This document shows positions 10,518 to 56,460 of a DNA stretch of 64,000 bases, in pieces. The stretch's first letter is position 1; every line of letters starts with the position of its first letter. Position numbers and translations under genes: made by a program. Below the pieces are notes generated by a model. It was given only the letters and a program-made list of their open reading frames with translations. It ran no database searches and was not told where the DNA came from. The stretch is from Octopus vulgaris (lineage: Eukaryota). The DNA lies in assembly GCA_951406725.2 (NCBI GenBank), contig OX597822.1:26164001-26228000 (forward strand), read 5' to 3'.

Positions 10518-10934
10518 AAGGCAGCGATCTGGCAGAATCGTTAGCACGCCGGGCAAAATGCTTAGCGGTATTTCGTCTGCCACTACGTTCTGAGTTCAAA
10601 TTCCGCCGAGGTCGACTTTGCCTTTCATCCTTTCAGGGTCGATTAAATAAGTACCAGTTACACACTGGGGTCGATATAGTCGACTTAATCCGTTTGTCTG
10701 TCCTTGTTTGTCCCTTCTGTGTTTAGCCCCTTGTGGGTAATAAAGAAATTGGTATTTCGTCTGCCGCTACGTTCTGAGTTCAAATTCCGTCGAGGTCGAC
10801 TTTGCCTTTCATCCTTTCGGGGTCGATAAATTAAGTACCAGTTATGCACTGGGGTCAATGTAATCGACTTAATCCCTTTGTGTGTCCTTGTTTGTCCCCT
10901 CCATGTTTAGCCCCTTGTGGGCAATGAAGAAATA
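10518..10934 (+). mobile_element. SINE family B tandem (head-body-tail1-body-tail1)
   Basis: Head aaggcagcgatctggcagaatcg, B box GAGTTCAAATTCC, tail1 ...tgtttagccccttgtgggtaataaagaaat; second unit restarts at ggtatttcgtctg (10751). Confidence 0.9.
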
Positions 10935-10950
10935 AGAATCGTTAGCACGC

Positions 10951-12086
10951 TTCCTGTGTTATTCAAGGCTACGTGGGTCATCTTTGATGGTATTTTCAGT
11001 GTTAACATCGTTCATTTTGTTTCAGTGCTTTAAACACTTCGATTAATTGTTTTTGTGCTGCTTTGCAGCAATTTGTTTGTACTTCCTCTCCTCACAGAGG
11101 AGGGTCGCATTACTGAAAAAAATGTCTGGAAAAGACTTCAGCTTTTCAGATATGCCGTCTTCAGAGGAAAAGGGTCAAGAGAATGGACAAAAAATTAAAT
11201 GAAGAAAAGAGAAGCCTTGCGGACGTAACAAAGTGCCAGGAAATTTATATTGATATTGAAATTTGAAAATTACAAAAATGTATTAAGTCGGGATGGATTT
11301 GATGTTAAATTGTCCTCCACCCCGCAAGAGATGCTTAATAATATTAAAGAAAGAACAATTTTGTACAAAACGTTTTCAATAGTTAAAGGGAAAACTGACG
11401 TCATGACCATGGGTCAAATAGATAAGGCGTTAAGACCAGAATGGCATGAAATTGTGCACCTTGCGAGAGGCACTAAGTTCGGAGTAGTGGAAGTGATATT
11501 CAAGGACGCAGCAACAGCAAAAAAGCACACAGCGACTACCAAACCTGCCCATCCCCCTCTGACACAGAAAAATGTACAAACAGACAAAAACTCCCAAACT
11601 CCTCCTCCCAGACAAAAAAGAAGTTTTAAAATGCTACGCAGTAATGTATGATGACTCAAATGAAAAACTGTGTAAAGAAGTGTTATCTTGGAAAGACTTT
11701 AAAACAGTTGGAACAACGAGTTTTGACAACATAATGAGATGGCACTGTTGCGCGTTGTGCTCGGATGAACAGAAAGCAAAAATAACAAGATTTAAAAGCG
11801 GATATTGGCGTTGGGAGGTGAAATTGGATTGGGACGTATTACCACAGTATACGTCATATGAGGAAGTGGTGGAAGAATTTGGAATCGATATTCTAGCGGG
11901 AAAGAAGTTTAAAAGGTATAAATGAAACTGCGATGAAGTGGGGCCGAGTGGCTTCATTCCATTTTTCATTTCACTTTTCATATCATTTTTTCATACGTTG
12001 GTTCTAATTTTTTTCTCTGTTTGTATGTCCCACATGTTGTGTAGCGTCCCCTCTATGTTCGCCCCGTAGTGGGTAATAAAAGGATT
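10951..12086 (+). mobile_element. ORF1-only (HAL1-like) non-autonomous retroelement of L1/Tx1 type, 16-bp TSD
   Basis: TSD AGAATCGTT(A/G)GCACGC at 10935-10950 and 12087-12102. Frameshifted ORF from ATG 11122 to 11925 with an RRM-like segment (IVHLARGTKFGVVEVIFKDAATA). No RT. 3' tail matches the Tx1-like LINE at 55097. Confidence 0.7.
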
Positions 12087-12670
12087 AGAATCGTTGGCAC
12101 GCCGGGCAAAGAACTTCGAGGCATTTCTTCTAGTTTTACGTGCTGAGTTCAAATTACGCCTAGGTCGACTTTGCCTTTCATCCTTTCAGGGTCAATGAAA
12201 ATATGTACAAGTCGAATATTGCGATCGAGGAAAAAAAATTAACTCCTCCACTCAAGATTTCAGACTTTGTGCTTATAGCTGGAAGAATTACTGAGCGGTA
12301 TTCTTTCTGACGCTTTCATTCTGAGTTCAAAAGCCGCTGAGGGCAACTTTGCCATTTATCCTTTTGGAATCGATGAAATAAAGGACCAGTGAAGTACTGG
12401 GGTCACTGAAGTCGACTAGTCCTTTCCCTCAAAATAGCTAGCCTTGTGCCTAAATCAGACGCCGAAGATGGAAAACTGGTAAAATGGTTTGAGCATCGGA
12501 GAAATGTTTTAATGTTTGTTTCGATTCTTTACGTTCTGCGTTCAAATCCTGCAAAGATCATCTTTGCATACCGTCTTTTCGGGTTCGATAAAGTCAAGTA
12601 CCAATTAAATGCTGGGATCGTTAGAACTGAATTACCCTTCCCTTCAAAATTACTGACCTGCTTAAATAGA
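12087..12670 (+). mobile_element. Cluster of three degenerate SINE family B copies
   Basis: Repeated ctgagttcaaa...actttgcctttcatcctttc motifs at about 12140, 12320 and 12535. Confidence 0.75.
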
Positions 12671-26065: not shown

Positions 26066-26296
26066 TACTTCTTTATTACCCACAAGGGGCTAAACATAGA
26101 GGGGACAATCAAGGACAGGCATAGGTATTAAGTCGATTACATCGACCCCAGTGCAAACTGGTACTTAATTTATCGACCCCGAAAGGATGAAAGGCAAAGT
26201 CGACCTCGGCGGAATTTGAACTCAGAACGTAGCAGCAGACGAATACGGCTCCGCATTTCGCCCGGCGCGCTAACCTTTCTGCCAGCTCGCCGCCTT
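26066..26296 (-). mobile_element. SINE family B monomer with tail1 and TSD
   Basis: TSD TTATATAATACT at 26054-26065 and 26295-26306. Confidence 0.92.
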
Positions 26297-26771
26297 ATAT
26301 AATACTGTGTAACTTCATCTTTTTCCTAGGGTAGCAAATGTTATTTTATATTTGCTTACCCCAAGAAAGTATGAAAAATGGCTATTTCCTTCAAACTTTG
26401 CTTTTGTTACATATAATCTTCCACGACTCCTGTTCACAAAAAGTCACAAAAGCAAAGTTTGAAGGGTATAGTTACTCACTAACACTTACTGACCAGAAAC
26501 AAATAAATAAGTAAAATTTGTTACACAGTGTAATAAACCAATCCAGCACTGAGACTGATACTCGCTGTTTTGTTTCTGTCTGTCTGAGACCTGAGGAGGG
26601 ATAGACTCTTCAAAGGTCTAAAGATGTTCAAGCCATGTCGCTTGTGACGACGGCACCGCTGCACCTCAATCGGGGTAACCGTGAAAAAAATTCGTCCTTT
26701 AATTGGAGTAGTTTCCAAAAGATTTCGAACGTTGATTCTTCATACTCTGCTTTAGATTTACTGCTGTAAAA

Positions 26772-27188
26772 TTATTTCTTTACTACCCACAAGGGGCTAA
26801 ACACAGAGAGGACAAACAATGACAGACAAACGGATTATGTCGATTACATCGACCCCAGTACGTAACTGGTACTTAATTTATCGACCCGAAAGGATGAAAG
26901 ACAAAGTCGACCTCGGCAGAATTTGAACTCAGAATGTACCGGCTGACGAAATACCTATTTCTTTATTACCCACAAGGGGTTAAACATAGAGGGGACAAAC
27001 AAGGACAGACATAGGTATTAAGTCGATTACATCGACCCCAGTGCGTAACTGGTACTTAATTTATCGACCCCGAAAGGATGAAAGGCAAAGTCGACCTCGG
27101 CGGAATTTGAACTTACAACGTTGCACCAGACGAAATACCGCTAAGCATTTCGCCCGGCGTGCTAACGTTTCTGCCAGCTCGCCGCCTT
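26772..27188 (-). mobile_element. SINE family B dimer (tail1, tail1) within one TSD pair
   Basis: TACTGCTGTAAAA on both sides (26759-26771 and 27190-27202); internal junction tail1|ggtatttcgtc. Confidence 0.92.
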
Positions 27189-55096: not shown

Positions 55097-56460
55097 TTTT
55101 TTTATTAGGCCACGCAGGGCCGAACACAGAGGGGACAATACCATGTAGGATTTTTATTTTCAAAACCGATCAATAGGGATCGAAAACCTTTTGGTGTGTG
55201 TACACAAAGAGATAACAAGGTAACGTTTTAACAAGAGAAATTCCCCAAAGGGGGAGAAAATATAACACTGACTAGGGTTATCCGTGGAAAGAAAAACCTA
55301 CGAAAAATAACCACGGTAACCTCGGAAAAATAAACACGAGAACAAAACGCCCTTCCTCTTTTTGTTTTATAGGTTCATGCTCAAAGTGGGTCCATCATTC
55401 ATACATCCCATCTCTGCTACATTCACCCACATTTTATTAAACTTTTAATTAGACAAAACCTCCCTCTCTGCTCTCACCCTCCTTTCCAAGTAATACTTGA
55501 AAAAGTTGATGAGAAGTTGGCCAGAGAGGAAAATATTTGTCTCTAAGCCTTTCAAACTAGCGCACCATACACATTCTTTCGCCATAGCCACCAATACGAT
55601 GAAAACTGCCTTGCCTTCCCGGTTAAAGGAAGGTAGCGGGGCAGTATTTACGATAGACTCGGTTGACCACCGGACTCGTCCTACATGTGACAGCAGCCGT
55701 TCGACACAGGTCTGAAATATTTGGACATTGCACGAGTGCATGCAGAACGGTTTTGTCGTTCTGACCGTATCTCAGGCAGGTGCGTTCGGTGTTTTTTGAA
55801 CCGTGTCTGTAGACCTTATCTCGAACGGGCAACGCTCCCCGATAGCACTGCCGGGCCAGGAATCTCTGGAAACTGTCCATAGATCTTGGCCCAGAAGTGG
55901 TCCTGAAGAGGCGACTCAGATATTCCCTGTCGACGCCCAGAGTTTCCCTAAGATCGTCGTCGTACCTCCCCTCCACTAATTCTCTAAAATCACCTTGATG
56001 GAATGAAATCACACAAGTTTGAATCCGGATGCAGAGCTGCTCGAGAGCATGGTGACACTCGCAGTGCCATTCACACAGCCTCGGTCTCTACTTGATCCAT
56101 GATTGCTGTTCGGTAAATGAGACGAGCTGCGACAAAGCCCGTCTCACAAACGGCGACCGCGCCTGCTCACCGTAGTGAAACGCTAGAGATGTCGCAGTCT
56201 CAGCGCATGCCTGCGTATCATCAACCATGGCATACCCAGTCTGCCATTTAAAGGATGTTGACAGCAGATGGATCGCCTAACCATCGGAACGCTTCCCCTC
56301 CACAAAAAAAAACGGAAGAGTATGCGTTCCAGTTTCGTGATGGTAGGGTCGAGACAAAGCACGACGGTCAAACAGTAGTAGATGACGGATGTGATGTTCG
56401 CATTCGCCACCTCAGCCCGACCTTTTAGAGAAAACTTCCTCTCGGCCCATAGCTGGGTGT
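55097..56460 (-). mobile_element. Degenerate L1/Tx1-clade LINE, 3' part
   Basis: LFRFFLWRG...VRRSICCQHPLNGRLGMPWL, YRGALPVRDK, degenerate CCHC (TCLRYGQNDKTVLHALVQC), 3' UTR ending AATAAAAAAA. Confidence 0.85.

What the first reader, a model, noticed from the sequence alone, without database searches (positions are those of the whole stretch)
10951..12086. Three-tier retro-parasite system: a Tx1-like LINE, an ORF1-only element and a tRNA SINE share one 3' tail
Seen: three different element types end in the same ~40-nt tail. Tx1/L1-like LINE (55097-55140, minus): GTCCCCTCTGTGTTCGGCCCTGCGTGGCCTAATAAAAAAA. The 1.1-kb element here: GTCCCCTCTATGTTCGCCCCGTAGTGGGTAATAAAAGGAT. SINE B tail1: GTCCCCTCTATGTTTAGCCCCTTGTGGGTAATAAAGAAAT. 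The 1.1-kb element has a 16-bp TSD, a 5' UTR and a frameshifted ORF1-like reading frame, but no endonuclease or RT. Established: SINEs often borrow the 3' end of their partner LINE, and HAL1 elements are ORF1-only L1 derivatives; mammalian L1 recognises poly(A) rather than a specific tail. Inference: a stringent, tail-recognising Tx1-clade RT mobilises both an ORF1-only element and an abundant SINE.
Basis: partly seen in the sequence, partly recalled or inferred. Interest (0 to 1): 0.8.

Follow-up and report, generated by a model that had tools for sequence, protein, structure and literature searches.

The report
Octopus half-LINE shares tail, targets SINE

Summary
The shared tail is real. The element at 10951-12086 has a 16-bp target duplication and belongs to a family of ~1.65-kb ORF1-only elements; this copy has lost ~540 bp. 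The family's ORF (predicted two RRMs plus a CCHC knuckle) is 40-44% identical to ORF1 of intact L1/Tx1-type LINEs here and is under purifying selection. The tail holds a 4-bp stem with compensatory changes.

Two corrections. First, the window LINE is an unlikely partner: 0 of 30 copies sit at the element's site, and other LINEs match the tail better (36-37 versus 30 of 40 bases). One of these sits at the same site. Second, the element is site-specific: 11 of 11 intact 3' ends lie at one base of the SINE head.

ORF1-only relatives form a long-lived radiation with several targets. Two SINE subfamilies favour two different sites, even off target, which suggests priming by read-through RNA; this is not shown. 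ORF1-only LINE derivatives, LINE-SINE tail sharing and transposon-targeting Tx1 are each known; I did not find the combination in print. The scan noted the SINE-targeting family before on other DNA of this genome.

The parts
10518..10750 (+). SINE unit 1: head, body and shared tail (T variant), followed directly by SINE site 2
   Evidence: tRNA origin inferred from A/B-box-like motifs only (Rfam and ARAGORN one search found nothing)
10751..10934 (+). SINE unit 2: headless body with shared tail (C variant), followed directly by SINE site 1
10935..10950 (+). 5' copy of the 16-bp target duplication; SINE head sequence at site 1
10951..11121 (+). 5' UTR of the ORF1-only element; its first ~145 bases are shared at 87-89% with related families that use the same site
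11122..11925 (+). Broken ORF1; ~540 bp (the second predicted RRM and the zinc knuckle) deleted at about 11538-11541
11926..12045 (+). 3' UTR
12046..12086 (+). Shared tail: pyrimidine-rich motif, predicted stem-loop 12061-12074, poly(A)-signal hexamer 12075-12080, no long poly(A) tract
12087..12102 (+). 3' copy of the target duplication
12103..12290 (+). Rest of the target SINE, an older copy with a different tail type (end approximate)
55097..56460 (-). 5'-truncated, broken 3' part of an L1/Tx1-type LINE (end of ORF2, 3' UTR, tail 55097-55137); a different family with a microsatellite-type target (5' end approximate)
26068..26996 (-). Three further SINE copies with the shared tail (tails start at 26106, 26813, 26996)

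Best explanation
The element is a deleted, dead copy of an ORF1-only (half-LINE) family that inserts at one fixed base of a SINE head and is likely copied in trans by the reverse transcriptase of L1/Tx1-type LINEs, which would recognise the hairpin tail shared by LINEs, half-LINEs and one SINE lineage. Steps: (1) Shown: an ORF1-only family, target duplications, a fixed site, a shared tail with a covarying stem, and intact two-ORF relatives in the genome. (2) Inferred: the element's ORF1 protein coats its own RNA and an ORF2 protein of a relative binds the tail. (3) Inferred, and least sure: because the poly(A) signal lies only a few bases before the junction, transcripts end inside the flanking target sequence. 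These extra bases would anneal to the nicked strand of a matching site and prime reverse transcription, so the landing site is inherited with the RNA's 3' end and can switch when a stray copy founds a new lineage.
For: Family and architecture. Fixed site: 11 of 11 intact 3' ends and 11 of 12 near-complete 5' ends among 17 family loci, and 8 of 8 3' ends in sister families (counted by eye). Independent insertions: the host SINEs differ in tail type, and a SINE variant base agrees in both duplicated copies in 12 of 12 readable loci (4 T/T, 8 A/A). Partner at the same site: L135, a broken EN+RT copy whose tail matches 36 of 40 bases. A second LINE and half-LINE share another target (L184, L121). 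Stem: 89% of cells paired and 5 double changes, 1 of 500 shuffles as high, all slid controls lower. Selection: dN/dS 0.12-0.35 between ORF1-only families where estimable. For step 3: targets change at least 22 times among 9 labels on the ORF1 tree (minimum 8). One tail type goes with one target across distant ORF1 branches (L116, L282, L284). SINE C-variant tails make up 92 of the first 100 site-1 junctions and 7 of the first 100 site-2 junctions. Off target, 14 of 30 T-variant copies still begin like site 2 (1 of 30 like site 1) and 13 of 30 C-variant copies like site 1 (3 of 30 like site 2). No clear consensus upstream of the cut. LINEs with 90-98% identical endonuclease domains have different downstream neighbours. 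Annealing to the target is known for SART1 and R1 (PMC7265360, passages).
Against: No experiment or RNA end supports tail recognition or read-through. The direct test for RNA-templated bases in the 3' duplication was inconclusive: positions 2-5 differed in 4 of 26 rows each, 8 against 3 in the predicted direction, and 2 rows looked spurious. Only one autonomous copy at site 1 was found (1 of 4 matches; 1 match). The covariation rests mainly on one of four pairs, in related sequences. SINE junction counts are not independent events, because multi-unit arrays can be flanked by a single duplication (L263, L124). G stood two bases upstream of the cut in 12 of 26 rows, a hint of endonuclease preference. 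The tree is a quick one (SH-aLRT only, midpoint root) and at least two target labels are wrong (L120, L034).
Confidence: 0.55

Rival explanations
1. Same three kinds of element and the same tail recognition, but the landing site is set by the endonuclease alone. Each target has its own LINE family, and each half-LINE or SINE subfamily used the LINE that was active in its time or that prefers its tail variant.
For: This is the standard view for Tx1 (PMC4494074, passages). LINE and half-LINE pairs share targets (L135 with this family; L184 with L121). LINE families with 48-59% identical endonucleases have different targets. Weak G preference upstream of the cut.
Against: Many more half-LINE targets than partner LINE families were found. 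LINEs with 90-98% identical endonuclease domains have different neighbours. Off-target SINE copies show a graded length of match to their own subfamily's site. My LINE sample is small.
Confidence: 0.3
2. One reading: the LINE family at window 55097-56460 mobilises both the ORF1-only element and the SINE.
For: Tail identity of 30-32 of 40 bases and the same stem. One ORF1-less fragment with a half-LINE-type 3' UTR in L023 ends like this LINE family.
Against: 0 of 30 copies lie at the SINE site; about 17 of 30 run into a simple repeat (by eye). Other LINEs match both tails better (35-37 of 40).
Confidence: 0.07
3. The ORF1 protein of each half-LINE family steers the complex to its target, as HeT-A Gag does for telomeres (recalled).
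For: ORF1 is under purifying selection and its C-terminal part differs between families.
Against: The target does not follow the ORF1 tree, and the SINE, which has no ORF1, shows the same site preferences.
Confidence: 0.05
4. The element is a one-off deletion of a LINE, or all copies descend from one SINE-plus-element composite that spread as a unit.
For: The window copy does carry a deletion not seen in the other copies fetched, and SINE arrays can move as units.
Against: The family is multi-copy with the same ORF1-to-tail junction. Host SINEs belong to different subfamilies. A 53-row ORF1 branch has no LINE member.
Confidence: 0.03

Closest known systems
ORF1-present non-autonomous LINEs: HAL1 (L1 clade), HeT-A (Jockey), Ag-Sponge (CR1) (PMC5786205 and PMC5753468, passages; PMC13534243, passages)
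   Same: 5' UTR, ORF1 and 3' end of a LINE without ORF2; ORF1-only lineages can found new ORF1-only families (shown for Drosophila telomeric elements).
   Different: The passage seen lists no Tx1-derived example. Here the copies are site-specific inside other repeats, end in a shared hairpin tail without a long poly(A) tract, and switch targets.
Tx1-Mar LINEs with SINEU in crocodilians; Xenopus Tx1 in Tx1D; Kibi and Koshi (PMC4494074, passages and section 15)
   Same: Tx1-type LINEs that target other transposons or microsatellites, a non-autonomous rider that shares the target, and tandem insertions separated by the duplication.
   Different: SINEU shares no tail with a known LINE and ends in poly(A), and its target is a DNA transposon. 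Here the rider is ORF1-coding, the tail is shared, and the target is a SINE that itself uses the same tail and site.
Stringent LINE-SINE pairs with a 3' stem-loop: eel UnaL2, a monocot L1 lineage, Chlamydomonas L1-1 with SINEX-3 (PMC3747384, passages)
   Same: A shared 3' end with a stem-loop that shows compensatory changes, in an L1-group element.
   Different: Here the tail is shared by many LINE and half-LINE families as well as a SINE, and stringency has not been tested experimentally.
SART1 and R1 priming by RNA-target annealing (PMC7265360, passages)
   Same: Target-like bases at the RNA 3' end improve accurate priming.
   Different: There the site is fixed by the endonuclease; here a heritable, switchable address in enzyme-less elements is proposed.

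Membership tests
ORF1-only non-autonomous LINE (HAL1-like) | Encodes an ORF1 homologous to that of an autonomous LINE | tested here: met
   40-44% identity to ORF1 of intact LINE L129; zf-CCHC in a sister family; predicted tandem RRM fold for that sister protein
ORF1-only non-autonomous LINE (HAL1-like) | No ORF2 between ORF1 and the 3' end | tested here: met
   Family length ~1.62-1.69 kb with the tail ~160 bp after the stop
ORF1-only non-autonomous LINE (HAL1-like) | Multi-copy, independently inserted, with target duplications | tested here: met
ORF1-only non-autonomous LINE (HAL1-like) | ORF1 kept under selection after loss of ORF2 | tested here: met
   dN/dS 0.12-0.35 between families; many pairs saturated and not estimable
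ORF1-only non-autonomous LINE (HAL1-like) | Mobilised in trans by a LINE ORF2 | not testable with these tools
   Inferred from shared tail and shared target
HAL1 proper (mammalian) | Derived from mammalian L1 | tested here: not met
   Nearest ORF1 relatives are octopus LINEs and Octopus bimaculoides proteins; the profile found no L1 ORF1p among PDB sequences
L1 group (L1/Tx1) LINE, for the autonomous relatives | Two ORFs; ORF2 with AP endonuclease, RT and C-terminal zinc-binding domain, closest to L1 ORF2p | tested here: met
   best PDB match human L1 ORF2p, E 3.5e-71
Tx1 clade | RT groups with named Tx1 references in a tree | not tested
   No named Tx1 reference was returned; the label rests on target specificity and ORF1 type
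Tx1 clade | Target preference for repeats or microsatellites | tested here: met
Stringent-type LINE-SINE pair | Shared 3' sequence with a conserved stem-loop | tested here: met
   one pair carries most of the covariation
Stringent-type LINE-SINE pair | The tail is required for retrotransposition | not testable with these tools
   Needs an assay
tRNA-derived SINE | Head homologous to a tRNA with A and B boxes | tested here: inconclusive
   Box-like motifs seen by eye; Rfam and ARAGORN gave no tRNA match

The most novel reading that the evidence does not exclude
Octopus holds a radiation of enzyme-less half-LINEs and SINEs that share one RT-binding hairpin but each carry their own landing address in a few read-through bases at the RNA 3' end. 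Target specificity would then be inherited through RNA and could switch without any change in the endonuclease, making this a naturally reprogrammable site-specific retrotransposon system.
Probability: 0.3. Interest if true: 0.8.

Novelty: new variant of a known kind. Interest (0 to 1): 0.5.

Why it matters
It adds an L1/Tx1-group case of stringent tail sharing and a site-specific ORF1-only lineage, and it may explain much of the SINE-in-SINE nesting in an octopus genome (at least 35,000 exact junctions, not all independent). Intact two-ORF relatives exist, so two open questions become testable: what ORF1-only elements gain from keeping ORF1, and how much of a LINE's target choice comes from the endonuclease versus the RNA's 3' end. 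If the RNA sets the address, it would bear on retrotransposon-based targeted insertion.

Tried and rejected
Pfam on four short ORF fragments gave nothing useful; intact relatives gave only the zinc knuckle. The PDB sequence search with the ORF1 profile hit zinc knuckles, not L1 ORF1p. Rfam and ARAGORN gave no tRNA match for the SINE head. A second pattern for autonomous copies at site 1 found only L135 again. The homolog search with an RT region returned mostly unnamed records and no named Tx1 reference. No RNA holder was listed for a young half-LINE, and contigs laid on it cannot show RNA ends; neither is evidence on expression. The test for RNA-templated bases in off-target duplications was inconclusive; one search read the variant base one place off, and its variant counts are not used. 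The majority tail of family B was garbled by indels and is not used. The careful tree did not finish, and no AU test was run. Relatives of ORF1 outside octopus were not searched by profile. Rejected: a one-off deletion, a hitchhiking composite, and the window LINE as the direct partner.

Full report
What is in the window. The element spans 10951-12086 between 16-bp duplications at 10935-10950 and 12087-12102 (15 of 16 identical). The duplicated bases are SINE head sequence. Upstream lie two SINE units with the shared tail and downstream the rest of an older SINE. The LINE fragment at about 55097-56460 (-) is the broken end of an ORF2 with 3' UTR and tail. The three window tails agree at 29-32 of 40 bases; 2-4 of 5000 random window 40-mers do as well. 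Homologs of the ORF come from Octopus bimaculoides (75% and 55% identity), so the genome is most likely an octopus.

The family. A DNA search gave 54 matches from the 40 of 241 candidates scored. Full copies are 1.62-1.69 kb; the window copy lacks ~540 bp at about 11538-11541. An in-script majority of 16 copies shows one ORF of roughly 490 codons with a CCHC knuckle and no EN or RT. A sister protein 65% identical in the core was modelled (pLDDT 77.8, pTM 0.50), and its best matches are tandem RRM proteins (E 7.8e-5). Pfam finds zf-CCHC. The core is 40-44% identical to ORF1 of an intact two-ORF LINE (L129: ORF1 534, ORF2 1138 residues). That ORF2 has EN, RT and zf-RVT domains and matches human L1 ORF2p best. 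Placement in the Tx1 clade was not tested against named references.

Site specificity. One search examined 37 loci, and the counts here are by eye. Among the 17 loci of the window's family, 11 of 11 intact 3' ends are followed by SINE site 1. Six loci had no intact tail in view. Of 12 near-complete 5' ends, 11 are preceded by the SINE head; the twelfth is nested in another element. Eight sister-family copies also end at site 1 (8 of 8); seven of them keep the first ~145 bases of the 5' UTR behind a SINE head, although their ORFs are only ~67% identical. Host SINEs carry different tail types, and a variant base in the site agrees between the two duplicated copies in 12 of 12 readable loci. The insertions are therefore independent, not one composite.

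Which LINE is the partner. Of 30 loci of the window LINE family, none lies at the SINE site and about 17 run into a simple repeat. A pattern for tail plus site 1 gave 4 matches. One, L135, is a broken EN+RT copy, one is ORF1-only, and two are 3' fragments. A second pattern found only L135. Family-majority tails match the element at 36 of 40 bases (L135), 37 of 40 (a young LINE lineage with intact ORFs, L185) and 30 of 40 (window LINE family); the SINE C variant matches them at 35, 35 and 31. A LINE (L184) and a half-LINE (L121) share another target. So the driver is a clade of LINEs rather than the window LINE, and the site-1 partner rests on one copy.

The tail. In 22 natural tails from LINEs, half-LINEs and SINEs, a 4-bp stem is paired in 89% of cells with 5 double changes; 1 of 500 shuffles reached this and all slid controls were lower. 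RNAalifold predicts nearly the same stem, with 2 of 4 pairs showing double changes. Related sequences can inflate such scores, and one pair carries most of the signal. A poly(A)-signal hexamer follows, and no long poly(A) tract. In the window copy the hexamer ends 6 bases before the junction (by eye), so cleavage 10-30 bases downstream (established knowledge) would fall inside the duplicated target.

A radiation of half-LINEs. Of the 150 ORF1 matches listed I fetched 29 by design. The 16 chosen at 52-66% identity showed no ORF2 behind them; the four chosen at 40-41% were two-ORF LINEs. A quick tree of 75 of 92 ORF1 rows (17 near-duplicates or short rows dropped) has a 53-row branch, SH-aLRT 99, with no row followed by an ORF2. 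Other ORF1-only rows lie outside it, so there may be further origins. Targets include SINE site 1, the head of a second SINE, two sites of what looks like a third repeat, and the 5' ends of other elements. The labels need 22 changes (minimum 8, shuffled mean 44.9); at least two labels are wrong, the root is a midpoint and no AU test was run. dN/dS between families is 0.12-0.35 where estimable and 0.16-0.65 between copies of one family.

The SINE uses the same tail and sites. Exact tail-plus-site-1 junctions number 2,091 and tail-plus-site-2 junctions 32,888, with reversed controls 0. In 20 site-1 loci, full-headed SINEs sit in site 1 (L251) and site 2 (L256) behind a duplication, and L259 is an off-target copy whose duplication begins like site 1. 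Arrays can also be flanked by one duplication, so junction counts overstate events. The C tail variant makes up 92 of the first 100 site-1 junctions and 7 of the first 100 site-2 junctions. Among the first 30 copies selected as off target, 14 T-variant copies begin like site 2 and 13 C-variant copies like site 1, against 1 and 3 for the other site (a few are mutated true sites). In 26 off-target duplications there was no clear upstream consensus apart from G at -2 in 12, and the test for RNA-templated bases was inconclusive.

Mechanism. Shown: the architecture, the shared structured tail, fixed sites, selection on ORF1, and intact relatives. Inferred: tail recognition and copying in trans. Least sure: that read-through bases set the address. 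The rival, one endonuclease per target with subfamilies active at different times, explains most of the same data (0.3).

What is in print. PMC5786205 (passages) lists HeT-A, HAL1 and Ag-Sponge as ORF1-present non-autonomous LINEs. PMC5753468 (passages) defines HAL1. PMC13534243 (passages) shows ORF1-only lineages founding new ones. PMC4494074 (passages and section 15) describes Tx1-Mar and SINEU sharing a transposon target. PMC3747384 (passages) covers stringent tails with stem-loops in plant L1. PMC7265360 (passages) covers RNA-target annealing. PMC4758252 (passages) mentions an octopus CORE SINE. PMC13282606 (first third and a term search) counts 13 active L1-Tx1 families in Octopus vulgaris without mention of ORF1 or targets; I did not read its supplements, and its repeat library may hold these families. 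Bao and Jurka 2010 was not held, and Repbase could not be searched. Eight searches did not turn up this combination. The scan's own notes report the SINE-targeting ORF1-only family on other pieces of this genome; I had reached that reading before looking.

Verdict. It is a new variant of known kinds, interest 0.5.

Noticed in passing
L185-L187 (G000:C22:14223000-14252700); also L196, L201: Young LINE with intact ORF1 and a 1130-residue ORF2 in head-to-tail arrays of ~5.27-kb period, with two ORF1-only elements appended at the end of one array; it resembles telomeric retrotransposon arrays.
   Followed up: partly
L277, L279, L280, L282, L284, L116: ORF1-only families with a distinct tail stem that land just after the A-box-like motif of a second, different SINE; several have long open frames (406-420 codons).
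   Followed up: partly
L047, L048, L050, L140, L151, L153 and L112-L119: Two groups of ORF1-only elements land at two fixed sites that may belong to one further repeat; its likeness to Helentron-type non-autonomous elements is recalled, not tested.
   Followed up: no
L127-L130: Intact or nearly intact LINE family flanked on both sides by a dinucleotide microsatellite, like the Kibi target; its tail stem differs with compensatory changes.
   Followed up: partly
window 12103-12290 and many SINE copies in L205-L244: The same SINE body occurs with at least three other tail types, often ending in trinucleotide repeats, so a second LINE partner is likely; some of these also abut sites 1 or 2 (L206).
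   Followed up: no
L034, about 710-990: About seven tandem 35-bp copies of the element's 5' end, possibly from repeated template jumps.
   Followed up: no
L192:434-1870: A 479-residue open frame upstream of the LINE that looks by eye like the end of a Penelope-type element with a GIY-YIG motif; not searched.
   Followed up: no
proteins P0009-P0078: Many unnamed RT relatives at about 46-55% identity in public assemblies, and one at 66% from Argonauta hians, so the LINE lineage reaches beyond this genus.
   Followed up: no
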